A stretch of DNA of 64,000 nt, from positions 1 through 64,000 of the forward strand of contig JAQGDQ010000395.1 in assembly GCA_030141605.1 (NCBI GenBank), given 5' to 3'. The notes under the pieces were generated by a model, which had not been told where the DNA came from, did no database searches, and saw only the letters and a list, made by a program, of their open reading frames with translations. This DNA is from Tubiluchus corallicola (taxonomy: Eukaryota > Animalia > Priapulida). Every line of letters starts with the position of its first letter. The stretch's first letter is position 1. Positions 4,159 through 52,782 of this stretch are shown piece by piece. A program made the position numbers and the translations under genes.

Positions 4159-4192
4159 GGCAATATTAGTTAATTATTAGAAATATTTACAA

Positions 4193-4702
4193 GTGCTCAA
4201 GTTTCAACATGTGTTCATTCTGTATCTATTGATTTTTTGCTCTTTAAATCATTGTGACGTAACAGCTGTTCAAAATGGAGCTGTAACTTTGAGGCTTTCC
4301 GATTTGAGGCAAGATGATGGTCCATCTTGGGATGAAAGGATAGCAAAAGAATGTGAAAAAGAATCAAATGATGTACATGCGATGAACTACATAGACGATG
4401 TTGACGACAATGTGCGATACGTTACACTAGGAAACATCAAAGGCAGACTGGGCAATAAAATGTTCCAATACGCATCATTGTACGGGATAGCCCGTGGAAA
4501 TAACTTTACTGCAGTGATGCCTAGTTCTTTTAGCTTGTACGGAATATTTACTCAGTTGGAAATACCGGTATTCACTTGCACGGCAAAGTACAAACATTAT
4601 CGTCGTCAAGTGGTGGAAATTAAATTAATATTCCGTGATAAATTCTATCCCAGATTATGTAAATATGTACAGTCAGTGAGAATTCCACAATACAAAGTAT
4701 GA
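4193..4702 (+). pseudogene. Alpha-1,2-fucosyltransferase (GT11 family) N-terminal fragment
   Basis: Hydrophobic N-terminal segment, stem region, then GRLGNKMFQYASLYGIA (GT11 motif I). No ATG at the ORF start and no downstream HVRRGD motif seen, so a truncated copy or a single exon. Confidence 0.65.
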
Positions 4703-11502: not shown

Positions 11503-12048
11503 GTCTACGGCCATATCACGTTGAAAACACCGGTTTTCGTCTGATCACCGCAGTCAAGCAACGTAGAGCCCGGTTAGTACTTGGATGGGTGACCGCCTAG
11601 GAATACCAGGTGCTGTAGGCTTGCGGGATGCCCACACTGTATTTCGACACTAGGTGGAGGAGCAGCACAAGGCAGCCAACGGCTAGAGGGCGGAGGAGGT
11701 CAAGTGACCCAACGGCCATGTGTAGAGGAGTAAACCTTCCAAATCAGGAGTGGAGCCCCGAAGGCGGACCAGTGCAGCACGCTCACTGACTCCAGCAGCT
11801 CCTGCAGCCAACCTGGTGCCAAACGTATCGCTCCGCTTTCCTTTGGACTACACCAGGGAGGAAGAGAGGGGGTTCCTGTTGTCTGGGCAACTCAAGATCT
11901 CCATACACCTTGCCCAGGCGTGCGCCCTGGAGACGTTCAAGGATCAGAATGCTCAGCCACAGTCGACGCTGCAGCTCCATCAATGTGATCAATAACTGAC
12001 TCTCTTGGCACACACTCCATTGTCTTCCGAGACAGAAGGATGCCAACA
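11503..12048 (+). mobile_element. 5S rRNA-headed SINE with RTE-like body and tail, copy 1
   Basis: Full-length 5S-like head (11503-11621) without an oligo-T terminator; body shared with 29874-30367; remnant LSHSRRCSS* of an RTE ORF end; (CAA)n tail; TSD acaaacccata / acaaacccgta. Confidence 0.9.
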
Positions 12049-12564
12049 ACAAACCCGTAGTTAATCAAGTTTGGGCTAAAGTGAATTGAAGTCAAGCATA
12101 TTGGTCTATCGCTCCGCCTACGTTGTGACGTAACACGCTCAGCAGCATTCAGAACATCAGTTCCCGCTGAATAACAACTCTCTTTAGTAAACAACTTGAA
12201 AACTGATGTGTAATTAGCAGATAAACTAATTGAGCTTTTTCATCCACAAAATTAACAAGGCAGAAGTTAGTTTTACAAGATATTGTTACGAAGGCAGATT
12301 ATGACCAACCCCCTAATGTTAGTAATGGGTATGGTCGAGAAGCCCAGTCATGCAAATGTATAAAACAGAATGCACGCCGTAATTTGACGATTCCAACGTG
12401 GCCTTTCTGTCTGTAAGGGTGAATGCTGTAGGTTTGCTGATTTTATACCAAAGTCTGTCCACATGTCATGGAGCTATTGGTTGTGCATTAAAGTTCATTT
12501 TACATTCGCATTCTTTTTACTTTTCTCGTCTGCTGTAAAGTATTTCATAACTTGTATGCCGCTC

Positions 12565-25919: not shown

Positions 25920-28183
25920 CGTTTTGCCGGACCCAACTCGCGATTTTTTCGAAATTTTGACCAAACAGTCTGCAGAAACAACGCTTTAGCGTCGCCTGGT
26001 GGGACTCTCGGAAGGAGATATGTAGCTCTTTAGAAATGGGAAGAACAGGGCTACACGACGATGTGGGCTATATTTTAGGACAGGTCCACCAAGAGGAGTA
26101 CCGACGAGTTAATTAGATGTTCAATTTTTGGCAATTTTCGCTTGGAAAACTGCTGACGCAAAGCCATTGTTCTGACGTTTATTAATTTTATATATCCACA
26201 ATGATCATTACAGCATTGTACATAAAAGTATTTATTAACATATTTATTATTATGTGCACAACATGCCAAGCCGCAAATGAACCGTGGGGTACTCAAGAAG
26301 TAGTTACTTGTTCAGAGCACCCCAAATGAATGTGGACTGAGTGTAATAGAAAAGAGCAGTAAAGGAGTAGAAGGAAAGGTTAATAGAGAATAGAAAGAAG
26401 GAGAAAGATGTGGTGGTATCTGTATGAGTAACATGAACTATAGAAATGTAAAAATTGACACAGCCAGCAACACAATGGATTCCGACAGGAACAGCAGTGT
26501 AATTAATCAAATTGATTTATTCTGTATAAATAGAAAAGATTTCATTTTTAAAATTTCTTTTAAAGTTATTTATAGATAAAGAATTTTTTATGTATTCGTT
26601 TATGTTATTCCAAAGTCAAGGGCCAGTGTTAGTGATGAAGTGCCTTGCCGCGTCAGTCCTGCAATACTAAATACGAAATTCATTAAATCTTGTTGAGTCT
26701 TACATTAATAGATAATGGGTTTAAAAAGAAAGCGGGGTGAAGTTTGTTTGGTTTTGTAGATGAACACAGCGGTATTCAGGTTTATTAGATCATTTAGCAC
26801 TAGGATAGAATAGTTTTTAAAGAGATTAAGACCTACATGTTCACGCTTGTTCAAATTACCTATCAATCTTATAAATTTACGTTGTAGAGAGTTTAGTTTA
26901 ACTAGAGTTGAAGGGTAGGTGTGCCCCCAAAGTATATTACAGTAGGTCAAGTATGGCAGTACTAGACAATTATAAAGAGTGATTAGGTGTTCTTTTGTAA
27001 AACAATGTTTAACTCGACGGATTAAGCCGATGTTTTTAGCAACTTTAGAATGAATCATGTTTACGTGTGGTTTCCAATCTAGGTGTTCATTTAACATAAC
27101 CCCTAAGAACTTCATTTCGCTTACTTGTTCTACAGCATTACCATCAATTTTTGTAATACTGTTCTTATAGGTTTGTTACGAGCTCTGAATAAAATGTATT
27201 TAGTTTTAGTTGAGTTTAGTGCTTATTTATTGATTTTAAACCAGGCTGTAATTTTACTGAGTTCACTATTAATAATATTAGTGTTAAGTAACTTGCTGCT
27301 GATCTTGAAAAAAATACTTGTGTCATCAGCAAATTGGAAGACCTTTCCATTGTCAGTAATACAGTTTTGTAAGTCATTAATGTATATTAAAAACGACAGA
27401 GGTCTCAAAATAGATCCCTGGGGTACTCCGTGTGTGACTATTGCTTCGTTGAAAAGAACATTGTTACATTTGACTGATTGAGTTCGGTCCTTGAGGTAAT
27501 TAGCAAACCATGAGTATGCGACCCTTCTAATGCCATAGTGGAATAACTTATCTAACAGAATAGCATGATTAACTGTATCAAAGGTCTTAGAGAGATCACA
27601 AAGAATGCCAATGGCAACAGCGTTTTGTTCTAATGAATTAATTACGTTGTTCATTATATTTATTAGGGCTAGCTGTGTAGAACTACCCTTTCTGAAGCCA
27701 TACTTATGATTATAAAGTACATTATGTATGGTCAAGTAGTCTAATAATCTTTTATGGACTATTTTTTCTAATATTTTAGAGAAAAAAGGTATTAATAATA
27801 TAGGTCTATAGTTATTAATATCTAAGGAGTCTTTAGCCTTAAACACAGGAATAATTACTGATTTTTTAAGTTGATAAGGTAATTTTCCTGTTGTTAATGA
27901 GCAATTGATTATATGCGTTAAAGGAGCAGCTAAGTTATCAATTAAATCAATTATGACTTTGGGGAGAAAGTTGTCAAAGCCTGCCCCTTTATTACGGTTG
28001 AAATATTTACATATACATTTCAATTTATTTATAGTCATCCATTATACTCTGCCTAGAACCTTATAACTTTAATTCAGTAAAAGCTGCTGGCTTTGCGTCA
28101 TAAAGGAGGACTATGGAAGATGTTCGCGCTTTGTTGATCATAAGTGTACTTGTACGCAAAATCTTTTGCGGGGCCTTTGCTAG
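25920..28183 (+). mobile_element. Non-autonomous Helitron fragment split by a LINE insertion
   Basis: 25920-26178 and 28036-28183 are contiguous in the intact copies (gacgt|catccatt); ends in hairpin cgcaaaatcttttgcg plus CTAG. Confidence 0.8.
26179..28035 (-). mobile_element. 5'-truncated, frameshifted CR1/L2-group LINE (reverse transcriptase)
   Basis: ORFs 27223-28038 (NNYRPI, DLSKTFDTV, GVPQGS, FADD) and 26705-27115 (KFLGV..W..H); degenerate C-terminus and 3' UTR extend to ~26179. Confidence 0.95.
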
Positions 28184-29581
28184 AACTAAAATATTTTCTC
28201 CGGGTACACTTTTTTATGCAACAACGTCACACAAGTTTTGTTTACCAAGTTCTAATGATTTTTTTTCATTTTATTCGTGGATCAGAATAGCCTGATTGAG
28301 GATACAGTTAAGAAAAAAACGTGTGTCGCTTATTGTACCGAGTAGGCGATTGTAGTATTATGTGACCCATTTAATTGTCAGTCCACTACACTAAAGTACT
28401 GAATTAGCGTATGCTGCCATCTACAGTCGTTGTTTTACTCTAATTGTACACAGTTTGTCAGAGATTGATTTGTCATTAATTTTGATTCTAGATATTGTTT
28501 CCTTTTGCTTTTATTCATTAATCAGAGTAATTAAATTGTTAATTTCATGCTTTAATTCTGGTTCTAACTCTCTTAATCAAGTTTAAATAGAAAAAAATTA
28601 TAACACAGCTTTCTGTAAACCAATAATCTTTATTCTGCTATCAAAAAAGTCAAGCACACTTTGATTTTGGTATAACTAGTAGTCTGTAGAGTATAGGTGA
28701 CCTTTCCATTTATGGTCTGTATTCATGAATGTGATGTACCTTCCAAAAGGAACTTGAATCTCTGGTCATGTGATTACAGCGCTATTCTCTCAGGCATGCA
28801 AGTTTCAGTTGATCTAGAGACAGCAATGTTAAAGTATACAAAATTTCTACAGTATCATCGCGCTAACTTTTATGACTGTTTGTTCAATTTTGTTACTGAC
28901 GTGAACATTGTATACGTTTTACAATAAGAATGATTGCAAATTTCTGCATCGTGCATTAAACCTGTGAAAGTTATTGAAAATGAAAGTAGTCTCCGTATGT
29001 TGATTCCGTGTTTCAATCTAACGTATTAGTAACTGAAAAAGTATCTATACAAATTCTTACAAATTCTCACACTTACCTCGCACTGAGTAGTGCGAGGTGA
29101 GTGTACGACCATACGGTCATTAACACACTAACCTTACTTAAATGAAAAAATGATTATAGTTATGCATGTTTCTGCACATAACTTAATGTAAATAAGGATG
29201 AAGTAAATGATGTAATAATTTGAGTAGAGCGAGGTGAGTGTAAGACCATACTAAAGTCATTAACAAACTCACCTACTTAAATGAAAAAATGATTACCCTT
29301 GGTAGAATCTTTGGGGGACATGATCAGAATAACTTTTAACTGTGCAAGTAGTTCAGAACAATTCCACCCGAGGGCATTTGCCTCGTGACATTACCGCATG
29401 ACAAAACATCCTTCAGACCTGGCCGTTTAATAGAAGAATAATTCCACGCGAGGGCATTTGGCTCCTGACTACCGCTTGGCAAAACATCCTTACCAATAGC
29501 GTGACTTCTGCTGCGTGGTAATTTTCCTTTTTTGTCCGTAGAATCGGCTACGTTTAGGACACCATTCGTAAAACAGTCAAC

Positions 29582-29633
29582 ATGTTGAAAGCAGCTGTTC
29601 TGTGTCTTTCCACTATCTCCTTGATTGGTGTAG
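29582..29633 (+). CDS. Exon 1 (signal peptide) of secreted triple six-Cys-repeat protein
   Basis: ATG..MLKAAVLCLSTISLIGV then G|GTAAGT, a perfect phase-1 donor; joins in frame to 30986. Confidence 0.85.
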
Positions 29634-29873
29634 GTAAGTACCAACCTGTATTATAGTTTGTTATTTTAGACTGTAATCTTAAAACATTATTTTTATAAAA
29701 TGACAATATCTAAGTAATTTTAACTGCGTTCATCTAGTTATTGACACGATGATGTGATTATTTTTAACGCTTTTTATGTTGGACTTAATTGCAAATATAT
29801 ATATAGTAGTATATATATATAGTTGTATATATAGTTGTATATATACATATATGTACATATAGTTGTATATATA

Positions 29874-30367
29874 CTACGGCCAAATTACGTTGAAAACACC
29901 GGTTCTCGTCTGATCACCGAAGTTAAGCAACGTAGGGTCTGGATAGTGCTTGGATGGGTGACCGCTTAGGAATACCAAGTGCTGTAGGCTTGTGGGATGC
30001 CCACACTGTATCTCGACACTAGGCAGAGGAGCTGTATAAGCAGCCAACGGCTAGAGGGCGGAGGAGGTCAAGTGACCCAATGGCCATGTGTAGAGGAGAA
30101 AACCTTCCAAATCAGGAGTGGAGCCCCGAAGGCGGACCAGTGCAGCATGCTCACTGACTCCGGCAGCTCCTGCAGCCAACCTGGTGCTAACATATCGCTC
30201 CGCTTTCCTTTGGACTACACCAGGGAGGAAGAGAGGGGGTTCCTGTTGTCTGGGCAACTCAGGATCTCCATACACCTTGCCCAGGCGTGCGCCCTGGACA
30301 CGTTCAAGGATCGGACTATCTTGGCGCACATTCCATTGTCTTCAAGACAGAAGGATGCCAACAACAA
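29874..30367 (+). mobile_element. 5S rRNA-headed SINE with RTE-like body, copy 2 (in intron 1 of the Cys-repeat gene)
   Basis: 5S-like head and same body as copy 1 with a ~55-bp internal deletion; caacaacaa tail; TSD-like ttgtatatata. Confidence 0.9.
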
Positions 30368-30985
30368 TTGTATATATATAGTAGTATAGCCGCGTCGCCC
30401 ATTCCTCGTGATAATCGAGTATGCAGGTGTGATAACGTCTCTGTTCAAGACGAGTCCTACGTTACTGTACATTATAGATTATCTGAGCCAATGAGAGAAA
30501 TGTGTGCCACGTATTTAAACAGATTGCAAGAGCTATTTGATTTAGAGAATGAATTTTGTGGTAAATTCTTGTCAGGAATTTTGAAACTTGCTGTGTTCTT
30601 ATTTGTTGCTGACATTGATCTTATTCTAACTCAGTGCCAATCTTTTTAATGTTGTTGATGGACTATAATGTCAATATTGTCAATAAAATATTACTACTAT
30701 TATAGGTCTAATGAAAGCATAATATTCAGTCAAATTACAGTAGTTTGATCTGCATATTTAATGAATTTTTTGTGTAGTAAACTAGTCCGGAATGCGAAGC
30801 ATGTGTTATTGAGTTTTTTTGCCAATCTGCTTGGATATCTCATGTAGAATACCTTTTATCATTGTCATGGAATCCATTTTGTAATATGTTATTTAGAATG
30901 TTATTGTCGCCATTATACAAACGACAATGTGATATTAGTGATAAATTTTTGGAATTTTTATTTTGCGTTTTTTCATTTCTTCTAG

Positions 30986-31114
30986 TATGTCAAGATCAAC
31001 AACAGTGCATGTCACAAAATGGACGGTGTGTGTTGAAGTCAAGTTGTTGGGGGTTCACAGGTCCACAGTGCCCCAATCACCCTTCTAACTTTACTTGTTG
31101 CGTCAGTTATTCAG
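30986..31114 (+). CDS. Exon 2: six-Cys module 1 (beta-defensin-like spacing)
   Basis: ttctag| ... |gtaatt, 129 nt, phase 1-1: CQDQQQCMSQNGRCVLKSSCWGFTGPQCPNHPSNFTCCVSYS. Confidence 0.88.
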
Positions 31115-31294
31115 GTAATTTCTGTGCAACGCTTTGACATTTTTCACACCTGCATTGTAATTGCTTGTCAATAAAATGCTTAATTTTTTGTGCACTGATG
31201 TTAAAAAATAGGCCATCATATGGTTTTAAGACGGCAATCATGGGGACGTGTTAAAATACAGGTAGGCGAAATAGAATGCACTTCATTCTGCGAG

Positions 31295-32140
31295 TTATTG
31301 AACATTGTAGATTATCTGAGCCCGGGCCAGGCCACTCATTCCTTGTGATAACAGGGTATACAGGTGTGATAATGTCTCTGTTCAAGACGAGTCGCATGTT
31401 ATTGAACATTGTAGATTATCTGAGCCCGGGCCAGGCCACTCATTCCTTGTGATAACAGGCTATACAGGTGTGATAATGTCTCTGTTCAAGACGAGTCGCA
31501 TGTTATTGAACATTGTAGATTATCTGAGCCCGGGCCAGGCCACTCATTCCTTGTGATAACAGGGTATTCAGGTGTGATAATGTCTCTGTTCAAGACGAGT
31601 CGCATGTTATTGAACATTGTAGATTATCTGAGCCCGGGCCAGGCCACTCATTCCTTGTGATAACAGGGTATACAGGTGTGATAATGTCTCTGTTCAAGAC
31701 GAGTCGCATGTTATTGAACATTGTAGATTATCTGAGCCCGGGCCAGGCCACTCATTCCTTGTGATAACAGGGTATACAGGTGTGATAATGTCTCTGTTCA
31801 AGACGAGTCGCATGTTATTGAACATTGTAGATTATCTGAGCCCGGGCCAGGCCACTCATTCCTTGTGATAACAGGGTATACAGGTGTGATAATGTCTCTG
31901 TTCAAGACGAGTCGCATGTTATTGAACATTGTAGATTATCTGAGCCCGGGCCAGGCCACTCATTCCTTGTGATAACTGGGTATACAGGTGTGATAATGTC
32001 TCTGTTCAGGACGAGTCGCATGTTATTGTACATTGTAGATTATCTGAGCCCGGGCCAGGTCACTCATTCCTTGTGATAACAAGGTATTCAGGTGTGATAA
32101 TGTCTCTGTTCAAGACGAGTCGTATGTTATTGAACATTGA
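31295..32140. repeat. 104-bp tandem repeat array (~8 units) in intron 2
   Basis: Unit gagcccgggccaggccactc...gtagattatct with period 104. Confidence 0.97.
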
Positions 32141-32182
32141 ATATCTGAGTTCGCTATATAGTATATTATATCTATCTATCTA

Positions 32183-32226
<44 letters not shown>

Positions 32227-32676
32227 TATATACTATAGTCATTATCGTTATAGTTATATGTTATTATATTACTTTTTAACGTATGAGATAGTCAGATGAG
32301 TCTGGTTAAACTATATATTACAAGATATCATTATATTATAGTTAAGCATAGTTATATATAAAGTCTTTATATGATAACCACATAGAAGGTGTACTATAAG
32401 AACTGCATACAGTGTGCTTTACAAAAACTATATAAACAAAAAGTTATAGATACCATTCTTTGTTCGCACATTTTATAGCAATATAATAAAAACGGTGTTC
32501 GTTTCGTCTGACTATGTTAATGTTACCATTAATAGTAAAGACAGCTAAGATGAAGCTGCAATACCGTAGCAAGTTAAACGATCAAAAATAAAGAAAAAAA
32601 AACGAAATGCCTTTACAACAATGTTGAAATATATATGTATATACACATGAATACCATGTTCTTGGTCGCTTTTTAG

Positions 32677-32799
32677 GTCAAGAGGAGACATGTGCTGATA
32701 TTGGCGGCTATTGCACCTACCAGGATTGGTGTGATAACGATGATTGGGTGTACGGATTCTGTCTTACTCAAGGAGACAACGTAAAATGCTGCCTGGGGA
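32677..32799 (+). CDS. Exon 3: six-Cys module 2 (acidic)
   Basis: ttttag| ... |gtaagt, 123 nt, phase 1-1: QEETCADIGGYCTYQDWCDNDDWVYGFCLTQGDNVKCCLG; absent from the ORF track. Confidence 0.88.
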
Positions 32800-33194
32800 G
32801 TAAGTTTGCTGTTCTAACCCTCACCTTACTTTAAATACCAAACCTAAAATTCATGTGTGTTAATTAACTAAGCGTAGATAAAACAGTTTTTAGACAAAAA
32901 GCTTGGTGAGCTTAAGTTTAATGAACCCCCTCACATTTGCTTTGCAATTTCCATTATAATTCACGTCGTCACTCTCATGCGTTTGAATCCTTTCGTAAGC
33001 GTTATGATTAGGTTGCTGATAACATTTTAGATAATATTCGTGCTAAACGTGTAAGCAAAAGTTGGTTTTCTTGCTAATCTCAAGCCTGCGTTAAAGCAAC
33101 ATGTAGTTTATTCGTTTGATATCCCCACTTCTCTGGAATAAGTTTTAATAAGTTTATGCTGTCGTCTCATCATCTGAGCATCAAGACTGGTAGA

Positions 33195-34338
33195 CGGGCC
33201 AGGCCACTCATTCTTCGTGATAACAGGGTATGCAGGTGTGATAACGTCTCTGTTCAAGACGAGTCGTATGTTATTGTACATTGTAGATTATCTGAGCCCG
33301 GGCCAGGCCACCCATTCCTCGTGATAACAGGGTATTCAGGTGTGATAATGTCTCTGTTCAAGACGAGTCGCATGTCAATGTACATTGTAGATTATCTGAG
33401 CCCGGGCCAAGCCACTCATTCCTCATGATAACAGGGTATTCAGGTGTGATAATGTCTCTGTTCAGGACGAGTCGCATGTTATTTTACATTGTAGATTATC
33501 TGAGCCCGGGCCAGGCCACCCATTCTTCGTGATAACAGAGTATTCAGGTGTGATAACGTCTCTGTTCAGGACGAGTCGCATGTCAATGTACATTGCAGAT
33601 TATCTAAGCCCGGGCCAGGCCACTCATTCCTCGTGATAACAGAGTATACAGGTGTGATAATGTCTCTGTTCAAGACGAGTTGCACTTTATTGTACATTGT
33701 AGATTATCTGAGCCCGGGCCAGGCCACCCATTCCTCATGATAACAGGGTATTCAGGTGTGATAATGTCTCTGTTCAGGACGAGTCGCATGTTATTGTACA
33801 TTGTAGATTATCTGAGCCCGGGCCAGGCCACCCATTCCTCGTGATAACAGAGTATTCAGGCGTGATAATGTCTCTGTTCAAGACGAGTCGCATGTTATTG
33901 TACATTGTAGATTATCTGAGCCCGGGCCAGGCCACCCATTCCTTGTGATAACAGAGTATTCAGGTGTGATAATGTCTCTGTTCAAGACGAGTCGCATGTT
34001 ATTGTACATTGTAGATTATCTGAGCCCGGGCCAGGCCACCCATTCCTCATGATAACAGGGTATTCAGGTGTGATAATATCTCTGTTCAAGACGAGTCGCA
34101 TGTTATTGTACATTGTAGATTATCTGAGCTCGGGCCAGGCCACTCATTCCTCATGATAACAGGGTATTCAGGTGTGATAATGTCTCTGTTCAAGACGAGT
34201 CCTATGTTATTGTACATTGTAGATTATCTGAGCCCGGGCCAGGCCACTCATTCCTCGTGATAACAGGGTATTCAGGTGTGATAATGTCTCTGTTCAAGAC
34301 GAGTCGCATGTTATTGTACATTGTAGATTATCTGAGCC
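33195..34338. repeat. 104-bp tandem repeat array (~11 units) in intron 3
   Basis: Same unit as 31295-32140; a single unit also lies at ~30395-30488. Confidence 0.97.
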
Positions 34339-34818
34339 AATGAGAGAAATGTGTGCCATGTATTTAAACAGAGTGCAAGAGCTATTTGATTTAGAGAATG
34401 AATTTTGTGGTAAATTCTTGTCAGCAATTTTGAAACTTGCTGTGTTCTTATTTGTTGTTAACATTGATCTTATTCTAACTCAGTGCCAATCTTTTTAATG
34501 TTGTTGATGGACTATAATGTCAATATTGTCAATAAAATATTACTACTACTGTAGGTCAGTCAAATTACAGTATTTTAATCTGCATATTTAATTAATTCTT
34601 TTGTGTAGTAAACTAGTCCGGAATGCGAAGCATGTGTTATCGAGTTTTTTCTGCCAATCTGCTTGGATATCTCATGTAGAATACCTTTTATCATTGTCAT
34701 GGAATCCATTTTGTAATATGTTATTTAGAATGTCATTGTCGCCATTATACAAACGACAATGTGATATTAGTGATAAATTTTTGGAAATTTTATTTTGCAC
34801 TTTTTTCATTTCTTTTAG

Positions 34819-34946
34819 TATATCAAGAGCTAGCGTGCTTCCTTGCAGGTGGACAGTGTGCATTGGCATCAAGTTGTAATGGGGCCACAGTTCCAAATAA
34901 GTGCCCCACTCAGCCTTCTTCTAAAGTTCAGTGTTGCGTTCACTAA
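34819..34946 (+). CDS. Exon 4: six-Cys module 3 with stop codon
   Basis: ttttag| phase 1: YQELACFLAGGQCALASSCNGATVPNKCPTQPSSKVQCCVH*; donor cag|gtaatt retained 9 nt after the stop. Confidence 0.85.
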
Positions 34947-35127
34947 TTAATACAGGTAATTTCTGTGCAGTGCTTTGACATTTTTCACACCTGCATTGTA
35001 ATTGCTTGTCAATAAAAATTCTTAATTTTTTGTGCACTGATGTTAAAAATTAGGCCATCCTGTGGTTTTAAAATGGGGACGTGTTAAAATACAGGTAGGC
35101 GAAATAGAATGCACTTCTTTCTGCGAG

Positions 35128-35290
35128 CACAACTGATTTTTGAAAACTTCAAGCTTATTAAATTTCATGTGCTCATTAATTCTAAACTGAAGTTGTCTTG
35201 TGGTATGTCCTCTCAAACAATGACACATCCATGACAGACATGTGTATCAGATATCTTTTATCTTACGATATAAGGTAGAACATACCTAGT
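35128..35290 (-). mobile_element. Degenerate Penelope-like GIY-YIG endonuclease fragment
   Basis: GHTTRQLQFRINEH matches the G.TTR.L..RI.EH motif. Confidence 0.45.
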
Positions 35291-36039
35291 TACATGGACT
35301 ACATGATATCCTCAATAAGGAGCCACCGGGCGACAACATAGCCTTGGGTAGCCTATTGTGCTATTTCAACCTAGTACAGTTTTCAAACAGTTAATATAAA
35401 CGTCAGAAGAAGTCTGTTTGAAATAGAATCGTGAGTTTGTTTAACAGGCAATTAGGCAAAACGGCATGTAACACTATCTGTAGACTTATTCAGGAAAGTT
35501 GTACGTTCATTAGTGAAACTGTTTACAAGGGCAGATCCAAGCACCTAGGGTGAACAGTAAGAATAGACGCTGTACCTCGAGATACGTCACGCTAGCGCAG
35601 TTCTCGACAAACGACTTTAACCCTTGGCTTTCTCATAGTTGCTCTGCTAAGCTGTACAATTGAATCATTTGTCTAGATTTTTCATTTACTGGTGTAGAAG
35701 CAGTAATATATTAGCTTAAGTTCGTAAGTATACGTTGCCTTAAGAACAAAAACAGCACGAAAACTGATTGAATAGAAACACTCGTGCAGTTAAATGACTC
35801 TAGATTTAACTATTCTTTAACGACACCAGTTCATGAAAGAGTTAAATTATTTAGTCCTGCAAATTTTCTACAATTTAGTTATAGATTGTAAAGACCGTAA
35901 AAATGAAGTTATACTTAACGTATTTCTCGTATGTAAAGTACAATTAATAATCTTAGTCAATGTAATGTCAGACGTGTTTGTTTTTTTAGTAAAGTTCTAC
36001 TAACCACTTCATTTTAAATAGAGGAACTAAATCATTTCG

Positions 36040-37255: not shown

Positions 37256-37366
37256 GGGAAGCTGACTTCATCTTACACACTGCAGGGACATCGAGACGTC
37301 GGGACCACAGACTGCCCCGGCCAACGCTTGTACAAAAAAATCAAGACTTGGGCGGGATATCCATGA
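37256..37366 (+). CDS. Terminal exon of a peptidoglycan recognition protein (amidase-type PGRP); upstream PGRP exons not found
   Basis: ttcattag| GKLTSSYTLQGHRDVGTTDCPGQRLYKKIKTWAGYP*, matching the PGRP C-terminus Y.L.GHR....T.CPG..LY..I.TW with the Zn-ligand His and Cys. Confidence 0.85.
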   Translation, partial: GKLTSSYTLQGHRDVGTTDCPGQRLYKKIKTWAGYP

Positions 37367-51421: not shown

Positions 51422-52492
51422 TTACGAGTAACCAACTCTACGTTGCTTTTTACCCTCAGCTGTTTTAACAACCAGCTCTAGAAGATCTTCCATGTCGTGT
51501 TCTGATAAGGTGCACACCGTTTTCACAACTTCTTCTTCTTCGTCGTCTACATGTGGACAATCTGATTCTATTTTCTCCAAGAGCTCACCAACGAGTTCCA
51601 TACGATAATCTCCCCAGGTAAAGAGGTTTCCAGTGTTTCTGCAGCTGTTCTGCATATTTGCTATCATAACATCAGTATATTTCATGGATGAGATCGTAAT
51701 GTCCGTAACGAATCCTTTGAAACTTTGATGTGCCTCAAAGCCGCCACCTTTCTCATCCTGGTCCTGTCCGAATTCAAAAAACCCACCAGCTGGTATCTTT
51801 CCCACACCAGGAGTAAAAGTACCACTATCACTTAAAACAGGAATGTCAGTTTTTGGTTCAGCGTCCACTGCCCAGCTGTTGTCATTGCTGTCATAGCGAC
51901 AGCAGACGTAACGCCAGTTCCCGAGCCTCAAACCCGCATCAAATGCGATAGTGTTAGAGGGTATACCCACACCGTTTATATACAATGCCAGTGAGTCGTT
52001 CTTAAGACCAAATCTGATTACATCATCGAGATTATCTTGAGCCTCCGCTGCTATGGCATATGACAGGAACGTCGTTTCCTCGTTATTGGTTGTGGATGGA
52101 TCCAGTCTCACCCACATGCACGCCGAAAAAGCGTCCAAATATCTAGTTATGACTTTGTCTAATTTTATGTAGTCGGTGTCGGTAAATTCGGGAAAAATAA
52201 CCATCGTGTCCTCGGCTACCTCCACGTCGAAACATTCCGGTTCTGCGTCTTTGAGGGAATCTATCAGAGAGTAAATTGAACTTCCGGAGCTGTGCTTCCG
52301 TTTTGGATTTCTCAGAGCCGGTCGATAACCGTAAGTGCGTTTTGGAGATGGCTTTCTGCCATACCCTCTTCTGGCGCCTCCTCTGACTTTCTTATACCCT
52401 CCACGTTGTGCGTCCACCTCTTCATTTATGAGAGCAATTAGTATGACAATGATAAGAGCAGAAACACACTTGCACAGTGGTAATAAAGACAT
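51422..52492 (-). CDS. Secreted pentraxin-domain protein, 356 aa, single coding exon
   Basis: ATG and signal peptide; pentraxin motifs IFPEFTDTDYIKL, AFSACMWVR, FLSYA, FGQDQDEKGGGFEAHQSFKGFVTD, GNLFTW. Confidence 0.93.
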   Translation of the reverse strand: MSLLPLCKCVSALIIVILIALINEEVDAQRGGYKKVRGGARRGYGRKPSPKRTYGYRPALRNPKRKHSSGSSIYSLIDSLKDAEPECFDVEVAEDTMVIFPEFTDTDYIKLDKVITRYLDAFSACMWVRLDPSTTNNEETTFLSYAIAAEAQDNLDDVIRFGLKNDSLALYINGVGIPSNTIAFDAGLRLGNWRYVCCRYDSNDNSWAVDAEPKTDIPVLSDSGTFTPGVGKIPAGGFFEFGQDQDEKGGGFEAHQSFKGFVTDITISSMKYTDVMIANMQNSCRNTGNLFTWGDYRMELVGELLEKIESDCPHVDDEEEEVVKTVCTLSEHDMEDLLELVVKTAEGKKQRRVGYS

Positions 52493-52782
52493 TGCCGATT
52501 GTCGAGTGTATCACCGCTTCTCTCTTGCACAGATCAACAGGCCTTTCGCAAACTTTTTAAGGGGTTGACCACCATTAATATTGGCCCTAAATCTAGTGAC
52601 CCGGAACACTAAATTAAGTGCTGTCCAAATAACTCGGTTGAAGGAACAAGTTGCGTACGAAAGTCTATAGAGTCGTTCTTTATTTTTGTACATTCTCATT
52701 AAAACTGTATAGCAGTGTATATTGTAACAATAGAGAACGTGCCTTGCAAACAAATACAGAACGCTTTGTCAAAAATGTTTAA

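What the first reader, a model, noticed from the sequence alone, without database searches (positions are those of the whole stretch)
30489..35127. Duplicated exon cassette with near-identical introns but strongly diverged exons
Seen: 30489-31294 and 34339-35127 are a direct duplication. The intronic parts match almost base for base (well over 90% by eye). The embedded exons 2 and 4 share only about 18 of ~42 residues, carry in-frame indels, and keep all six Cys and the splice sites. Established: exons outpacing their flanking introns is the pattern seen in conotoxins, snake toxins and some antimicrobial peptides. Inference: strong diversifying selection on the module, or exon-limited gene conversion from a paralog, or conversion that homogenises only the introns.
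Basis: partly seen in the sequence, partly recalled or inferred. Interest (0 to 1): 0.8.

Follow-up and report, generated by a model that had tools for sequence, protein, structure and literature searches.

The report
Fast-evolving defensin-like heads of immune enzyme
A duplicated exon in an invertebrate gene encodes a small cysteine-rich module predicted to have a defensin-like fold, and it has diverged about nine times more than the introns copied with it, likely through positive selection; the gene looks like a bacterial-wall-cutting immune enzyme (PGRP) that lost most of its enzyme exons and would now make only the modules.

Summary
Blocks 30489-31292 and 34338-35125 differ at 23 of 646 flank sites (3.6%) but 40 of 126 exon sites (32%). 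Two details were missed: exon 2 has a seventh Cys, and exon 4 has a stop 9 nt before its donor.

The module is a rusticalin-type cysteine-rich repeat; the best short hit is a Priapulus caudatus protein. A lone last exon of a PGRP amidase lies at 37256-37366, and no other amidase exon is in the window. The locus is therefore likely a truncated member of the known repeat-plus-PGRP family (oyster PGRP-S1L).

Selection fits better than intron homogenisation. Site models reject neutral variable sites (p at most 0.007) and cannot reject synonymous rate = flank rate. The whole-exon dN/dS of 2.3 is not significant (p=0.13). Read contigs hold a third exon type, also in a second study, differing from exon 4 by 12 non-synonymous changes and 1 synonymous one.

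Exons outpacing introns is known from venom genes; my searches did not list it for this module. Expression is untested, and the locus may now be dead.

The parts
29582..29633 (+). Exon 1 coding part: predicted signal peptide (17 aa, mean hydropathy 2.0), phase-1 donor
30390..30489 (+). Single degenerate unit of the 104-bp minisatellite in front of block A (14-17% from the array units)
30489..31292 (+). Block A of the duplication
30986..31114 (+). Exon 2: cysteine-rich repeat, 129 nt, phase 1-1, 7 Cys; furthest from the family profile (23.9 bits)
31294..32139 (+). 104-bp minisatellite array 1 (8.1 units), joined directly to the end of block A
32677..32799 (+). Exon 3: older, acidic cysteine-rich repeat (6 Cys; 8 D/E, 1 K/R), phase 1-1, single copy in the window
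33195..34338 (+). 104-bp minisatellite array 2 (11 units) in front of block B
34338..35125 (+). Block B of the duplication
34819..34955 (+). Exon 4: cysteine-rich repeat, 6 Cys, stop at 34944-34946, 9 nt before the donor; tail 5 nt longer than in exon 2 and in the third exon type
37256..37366 (+). Lone last exon of a PGRP/amidase_2 domain (36 codons, open, AG acceptor, phase 0); would be 3' UTR in the present gene

Best explanation
Exons 2, 3 and 4 each encode a rusticalin-type cysteine-rich repeat predicted to have a beta-defensin-like fold, in a gene likely derived from a secreted repeat-plus-PGRP amidase, and the duplicated exon likely diverged under positive selection while its introns drifted neutrally. 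Shown: the duplication, the nine-fold excess of exon change, homology of the module, the PGRP last exon, the absence of other PGRP exons in the window, and a third exon type in reads. Inferred, step by step: (1) A terminal repeat exon was copied with about 670 nt of intron, with the 104-bp minisatellite at both junctions. (2) About half of the codons, the non-Cys loop positions, were driven apart, on the exon 2 branch and on the exon 4 branch separately. (3) This copy lost the middle amidase exons, and exon 4 gained a stop that removes a 70-residue out-of-frame tail and lies close enough to the last junction to escape nonsense-mediated decay. (4) The product would be a secreted 143-aa protein of three repeats with no enzyme, binding variable microbial surface molecules or microbial proteins rather than lysing membranes, since the repeats are not cationic.
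For: Flank 3.6% versus exon 31.7%. Site models: about 40% of codons with dN/dS 12-28 when all parameters are free; neutral variable class rejected in 8 of 8 settings, including double-base mutations; synonymous distance = flank not rejected. 1 of 18 same-residue codons differs synonymously, against 5-7 expected for an old exon. Third exon type in run X1 and in X3 (another study): 12 non-synonymous and 1 synonymous among the 13 listed changes against exon 4. Changes per branch, exon of 93 versus intron of 218: 19 vs 2 (p=3e-9), 10 vs 3 (p=5e-4), 3 vs 1 (p=0.08). The profile search gave 64 hits; partners include amidase_2, amidase_3, NlpC/P60, M15 peptidases and several lysozymes. PGRP exon: E=2e-9 to the solved 'peptidoglycan recognition protein 3'. 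17 repeat-plus-Amidase_2 rows are in the supplement of PMC7379824. The spliced frame 1-2-3-4 is open for 143 aa.
Against: One-ratio dN/dS of 2.3 is not significant (p=0.13). Pathway counting gives exon dS 0.16-0.24, above the flank (binomial p 0.002-0.013), though most of those counts come from multi-hit codons. The four-fold-site test is weak (1 of 9, p=0.15). There are only 38 codons, and chi-square p values on so little data are approximate. The third type is known only from the differences the tool listed (13 exon changes of 19 in the X3 contig; 18 of 25 in the X1 contig). The three-repeat product has 19 Cys, an odd number. Exon 2 scores 23.9 bits on the family profile, below all 165 homologous repeats it was built from. 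No transcript evidence was obtained. The ligand is pure inference, and PMC12855814 reports a stabilising, cleaved-off role for such repeats in a placozoan lysozyme.
Confidence: 0.55

Rival explanations
1. Same selective history, but this locus is now a dead or dying copy. The exons diverged while they headed intact PGRP enzymes; deletion of the amidase exons and the stop in exon 4 then disabled it.
For: Profile positions 1-127 of 163 of the amidase are missing from the window. Exon 4 has a frame-shifting 5-nt gain that exon 2 and the third type lack. Exon 2 has an odd Cys and keeps only 2-3 of 7 conserved non-Cys positions (2 as aligned there, 3 with the alignment). The PGRP exon is still open, so the loss looks recent.
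Against: The signal exon, all splice sites and all three repeat frames are intact. The stop falls after the last Cys and 9 nt before the junction. A Priapulus caudatus model (117 aa) also has a signal and two repeats with no Pfam domain.
Confidence: 0.25
2. Exon-limited gene conversion from diverged family members, or locally raised mutation, built the exon differences, with little selection needed.
For: 11 of 22 differing codons carry two or three changes. Reads indicate further family members with the same flanks and another exon body (joint skipping 34828-34953). Exon indels run at 4 per 129 nt versus 6 per 646 (p=0.07).
Against: Paired changes are enriched within codons (positions 1-2: 8 seen, 4.1 expected) and not across codon borders (3 seen, 2.9 expected). 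Synonymous sites and Cys codons are nearly untouched. Exon 3 is no donor. Allowing double-base mutations does not remove the signal.
Confidence: 0.1
3. The exons are old (distance about 0.35-0.55) and evolve near neutrally, while gene conversion keeps homogenising only the introns.
For: The family is multi-copy and the minisatellite arrays show concerted evolution (1.4% and 4.4% within arrays). One-ratio dN/dS = 1 is not rejected. Counted dS exceeds the flank distance.
Against: The likelihood is 2.5-7.4 units lower than the selection model at equal parameter number. Simulated same-residue codons would carry 5-7 synonymous changes, against 1 seen. Conversion would have to stop exactly at both exon borders (50-nt windows).
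Confidence: 0.07
4. The exon order, or the loss of the amidase exons, is an assembly error across the minisatellite arrays of a multi-copy family.
Against: A read contig is identical to exon 4, stop included (194 nt, 0 differences). The two arrays carry distinct diagnostic bases. The window has no N. An assembly error would not explain the exon-versus-intron contrast.
Confidence: 0.03

Closest known systems
Crassostrea gigas PGRP-S1L/S1S and related repeat-plus-Amidase_2 proteins (B2DEU4, B2DEU3; supplement rows of PMC7379824)
   Same: Signal, 1-4 cysteine-rich repeats, then a PGRP amidase; unnamed hits P0038, P0051 and P0068 show this layout with repeats homologous to these exons.
   Different: Here only the last amidase exon is present and exon 4 stops before it. 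No direct comparison with the oyster sequences was run. My searches listed no report of selection on the repeats.
Rusticalin cysteine-rich repeats / CysRRep (PMC6339383, PMC7379824, bioRxiv 10.64898/2026.06.07.730663)
   Same: Six Cys ending in CC with similar spacing (rusticalin Cx6Cx6-7Cx8Cx7CC; here 6,5,7,8 / 6,5,9,8 / 6,5,8,9); the same partner enzymes; predicted likeness to beta-defensin and tick carboxypeptidase inhibitor.
   Different: Those papers treat the repeat as a marker of horizontal transfer and state that its function is unclear. Here it is the fast-evolving part and is detached from its enzyme.
Priapulus caudatus XP_014663372 (LOC106806043; P0007)
   Same: Signal plus two repeats. 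Exon 3 matches repeat 1 best (17 of 39) and exon 4 matches repeat 2 best (20 of 40).
   Different: Uncharacterised gene model with two repeats; its gene structure could not be examined.
Conotoxin mature-peptide exons, snake PLA2, abalone fertilisation genes (bioRxiv 10.1101/107672, passages)
   Same: Exon more divergent than the adjacent non-coding DNA, with a fixed Cys scaffold.
   Different: Mature conotoxin exons average 2.9 times their flanks; this pair is 8.9 times. There is no evidence of a venom role (Pfam Toxin_18 only at E=1.1).

Membership tests
Rusticalin-type cysteine-rich repeat (CRR/CysRRep) | Six-Cys pattern C-x6-C-x5-7-C-x7-9-C-x7-9-CC | tested here: met
   Spacings 6,5,7,8; 6,5,9,8; 6,5,8,9 against Cx6Cx6-7Cx8Cx7CC in PMC6339383; exon 2 has one further Cys
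Rusticalin-type cysteine-rich repeat (CRR/CysRRep) | Sequence homology to repeats that head cell-wall hydrolases | tested here: met
   64 hits at E<=0.001; Pfam partners include amidases, NlpC/P60, M15, GH25, GH19, SLT and destabilase; profile of 165 repeats scores exons 48, 45 and 24 bits
Rusticalin-type cysteine-rich repeat (CRR/CysRRep) | Direct match to rusticalin or to the published profile | not tested
   Those sequences were not retrieved; Tigriopus and Priapulus hits are absent from the 2020 supplement
Repeat-plus-PGRP amidase (oyster PGRP-S1L type) | Signal peptide and N-terminal repeats upstream of a PGRP domain | tested here: met
   Exons 1-4 lie upstream of a PGRP exon on the same strand
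Repeat-plus-PGRP amidase (oyster PGRP-S1L type) | Complete Amidase_2 domain in frame | tested here: not met
   Only profile positions 128-162 of 163 are found in six frames of the window; none of 5 splice paths tried puts the exon in frame
Repeat-plus-PGRP amidase (oyster PGRP-S1L type) | Zinc-binding His and Cys in the C-terminal motif (roles recalled, from no call) | tested here: met
   Both align to the solved PGRP3 chain; the N-terminal ligands lie in the missing exons
Beta-defensin (trans-defensin) fold | Helix plus three-stranded sheet superposing on beta-defensins | tested here: inconclusive
   Models (pLDDT 85 and 72) have H-E-E-E; listed matches are mostly defensin-fold chains but weak: Z 2.0-3.6, rmsd 1.8 over 35 residues at best; Foldseek best E=1.3
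Beta-defensin (trans-defensin) fold | Disulfide pairing 1-5, 2-4, 3-6 (recalled) | not testable with these tools
   Model coordinates are not returned
Cationic membrane-active defensin | Net positive charge | tested here: not met
   K+R versus D+E: 2/1, 1/8, 2/1
Accelerated-exon genes (conotoxin type) | Exon divergence above adjacent intron divergence, driven by non-synonymous change | tested here: met
   whole-exon dN/dS alone inconclusive

The most novel reading that the evidence does not exclude
The cysteine-rich repeats on invertebrate PGRPs are hypervariable targeting heads, the animal counterpart of the cell-wall-binding domains of phage endolysins, locked in an arms race with bacteria. 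This locus catches one family member shedding its enzyme to become a free, multi-domain defensin-like peptide, a direct route by which new antimicrobial peptide families are born.
Probability: 0.3. Interest if true: 0.72.

Novelty: new variant of a known kind. Interest (0 to 1): 0.5.

Why it matters
The repeat occurs on hundreds of secreted cell-wall hydrolases in fungi and animals, and its function is stated to be unclear (bioRxiv 10.64898/2026.06.07.730663); the one experiment I saw suggests a stabilising pro-region (PMC12855814). Strong diversifying selection on its loops is hard to square with a mere stabiliser and points to a binding surface. The three natural variants, whose flanking introns differ by only 1-4%, give a ready set for binding assays. 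The truncated layout also shows how an enzyme's accessory module could become a stand-alone peptide. The rate pattern itself is well known, and the evidence rests on about 40 codons, which limits the score.

Tried and rejected
No whole genome is held, so donor exons and paralogues could not be searched. Pfam has no family for the repeat. PDB sequence searches with the repeat profiles gave nothing credible. The Atlas gave no usable hit for exon 4 and only leads at 0.76-0.90 for P0007. Word-indexed protein searches gave none with the three-exon alignment, none at E<=1e-10 for the neighbouring pentraxin-like ORF (meant to place the organism), and only itself for P0007. No RNA holder was listed, and the one guessed RNA run laid 0 contigs; neither bears on expression. 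Exon 2 as an alternative last exon: read-through gives 67 aa with 8 Cys and an AATAAA at 31170, but the modelled tail is low-confidence (pLDDT 49) and the PGRP exon shows the gene continued, so this is kept only as a possibility. Exon 3 as conversion donor was rejected. No kappaB-like motif was found near exon 1 with two recalled patterns. The ts/tv difference between exon and flank was not significant (p=0.35 on the superseded flank count). A circular-intermediate origin of block A (as in PMC3245284, passages) fits the order unit-block-array between two TA tracts and the roughly contiguous repeat phase (101 and 14 of 104). However, the left unit is 14-17% diverged against 3.6% for the block, so two rounds of array-mediated recombination fit as well; left open. 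Flank figures and intron branch counts are superseded. Literature searches listed no paper on selection in these repeats or on priapulid defensins; the original oyster PGRP papers are not in the library, and bioRxiv supplements were not seen.
Full report
Observation. The region is a + strand gene with a signal exon (29582-29633) and three exons that carry a six-Cys motif ending in CC; these are the only three such motifs in six frames of the window. Exons 2 and 4 sit in a direct duplication, 30489-31292 versus 34338-35125. With exact limits the flanks differ at 23 of 646 sites (3.6%) and the exons at 40 of 126 (31.7%), a ratio of 8.9, p=5e-19. Searches gave 32 of 647 because of a one-base boundary error and are superseded. 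Divergence switches on and off at the exon borders. The proteins share 18 of 39 aligned residues.

What the module is. Pfam has no family for it. A profile of the three exons found 64 proteins at E<=0.001 among 1.84 billion representatives. Many carry one or more such repeats in front of a cell-wall hydrolase: Amidase_2, Amidase_3, NlpC/P60, M15 peptidases, GH25, GH19, SLT, phage-type lysozyme or destabilase. Named hits among the 30 looked up include a nematode, a chytrid, a copepod, a hydroid and Priapulus caudatus XP_014663372. The Priapulus protein is a 117-aa signal-plus-two-repeat model whose repeats match exon 3 (17 of 39) and exon 4 (20 of 40) best. An earlier, unreviewed scan note calls this genome likely priapulid; my hit agrees but does not prove it. 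The spacing and partners match the cysteine-rich repeat of rusticalin (PMC6339383, passages; PMC7379824, passages, section 5 and supplement rows). Its function is called unclear (bioRxiv 10.64898/2026.06.07.730663, first quarter and passages), and in a placozoan lysozyme it stabilises the precursor and is cleaved off (PMC12855814, passages). AlphaFold models of exon 4 and exon 2 give a helix and three strands (pLDDT 85 and 72). Their structural matches are mostly defensin-fold chains and the tick carboxypeptidase inhibitor, all weak (Z at most 3.6; Foldseek E 1.3). The repeats are not cationic.

The gene behind it. tblastn of 91 homologues found one further place in the window, 37256-37360. 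It is an open 36-codon exon behind an AG, matching solved PGRP chains at E=2e-9. A PGRP profile from four homologues finds only its positions 128-162 of 163 anywhere in the window. Repeat-plus-Amidase_2 proteins are a known layout: 17 rows in the supplement of PMC7379824, including oyster PGRP-S1L with four repeats. The locus is therefore best read as such a gene that has lost its middle amidase exons. Splicing 1-2-3-4 gives 143 aa with 19 mature Cys, and 1-3-4 gives 100 aa with 12. None of the five paths tried reaches the PGRP exon in frame. Paths that skip exon 4 run into an out-of-frame tail of about 70 residues. The stop in exon 4 avoids that tail and, by the recalled 50-nt rule, would escape nonsense-mediated decay.

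Other copies. Contigs of four runs were laid on 34345-35900. In X1, possibly the source sample, one 194-nt contig is identical to exon 4 with its stop (depth 203). A second contig (depth 1037) is a third exon type with 25 other letters and 8 gap letters, 5 of them at the tail, giving the shorter tail seen in exon 2. A third contig (depth 947) has the same flanks around another body. X3, from another study, holds the third type too. The tool warns that depth is no copy number, so I read this only as a multi-copy family, perhaps of about ten. Since exon 2 and the third type share the short tail and 10 of 13 listed letters, the stop and those changes are likely derived in exon 4.

Selection or conversion. 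Against selection: one-ratio dN/dS is 2.3 with p=0.13; pathway counting gives dS 0.16-0.24, above the flank (p 0.002-0.013); four-fold sites are too few (1 of 9). For selection: only 1 of 18 same-residue codons differs synonymously, where an old, neutrally aged exon gives 5-7 (P at most 0.023 in three simulations), and all six Cys codons are identical. Two-class codon models were run with flank or exon base frequencies, two transition ratios, and with or without double-base changes. They reject a neutral variable class in 8 of 8 settings (p at most 0.007), put about 40% of codons at dN/dS 12-28, and never reject synonymous distance = flank distance (p 0.09-0.46). The third type differs from exon 4 by 12 non-synonymous and 1 synonymous change among the 13 listed; on its own this ratio is not significant (p 0.07-0.13). 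The exon excess appears on each branch: 19, 10 and 3 of 93 exon sites against 2, 3 and 1 of 218 intron sites (p 3e-9, 5e-4, 0.08). Paired changes cluster within codons, not across their borders, and exon 3 is no donor. All of this rests on 38 codons and a partly listed third copy. Relaxed constraint alone cannot lift an exon above its introns, so decay is not the cause of the contrast, though the locus may have died afterwards.

How the copy arose. A 104-bp minisatellite lies at the junctions: one worn unit before block A, 8.1 units after it, and 11 units before block B. The segment unit-block-array sits between two TA tracts. This fits reinsertion of an excised circle (as described in PMC3245284, passages) or two array-mediated recombinations; I cannot choose. 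Block A need not derive from block B itself.

Comparison and verdict. Exons outrunning introns is the known pattern of mature conotoxin exons (2.9-fold on average), snake PLA2 and abalone fertilisation genes (bioRxiv 10.1101/107672, passages). It works like those, but nothing points to venom. The repeat family and the repeat-plus-PGRP layout are known; this locus fails the test of a complete amidase. What appears new, within ten literature searches and five look-ups of earlier scan notes, is strong diversifying selection on this repeat and a copy that has shed its enzyme. PMC5431198 (abstract), PMC10561478 and PMC3390580 (passages) added nothing decisive; bioRxiv supplements were not seen. Expression and ligand are untested. 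New variant of a known kind; interest 0.5.

Noticed in passing
window 29872-30315 and 11503-11948: Two copies of a 5S rRNA-headed element (Rfam RF00001), 93% alike over 444 nt, likely a 5S-derived SINE; one is inserted in the TA tract of intron 1; a related piece reads on the minus strand near 11998-12050.
   Followed up: partly
window 51422-52510 (-): Long open frame with a signal-like start, a basic Gly/Arg/Lys stretch and a pentraxin domain (Pfam PF00354, E=3e-14); no close relative found.
   Followed up: partly
window 4181-4702 (+): Frame resembling the start of an alpha-1,2-fucosyltransferase by a recalled motif; no Pfam hit at E<=0.1.
   Followed up: no
window 26705-28041 (-): Broken LINE reverse transcriptase (RVT_1, E=5e-25) about 1.5 kb upstream of exon 1.
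   Followed up: no
window 29355-29491: A 57-59 nt direct repeat (86%) just upstream of the start codon, possibly a duplicated promoter element.
   Followed up: no
window 34345-34550 and 34709-34812: Summed contig depth above 5000 in X1, against about 200-1000 nearby; these parts of the intron are likely dispersed repeats, or the family is larger than the exon contigs show.
   Followed up: no
window 30986-31175: Reading through exon 2's donor gives a one-repeat peptide of 67 aa with an even 8 Cys, a stop at 31135-31137 and AATAAA at 31170: a possible alternative end.
   Followed up: partly
PDB 24nk/24ne (Cypridina luciferase, residues 26-71): Top structural match of the exon 4 model (Z 3.4, rmsd 2.0 over 38 residues); the luciferase N-terminus may hold a similar small Cys-rich module; weak.
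   Followed up: no
P0035, P0049: Unnamed hits with several of these repeats and little else; P0035 has an N-terminal segment unlike an animal signal peptide, origin not examined.
   Followed up: no
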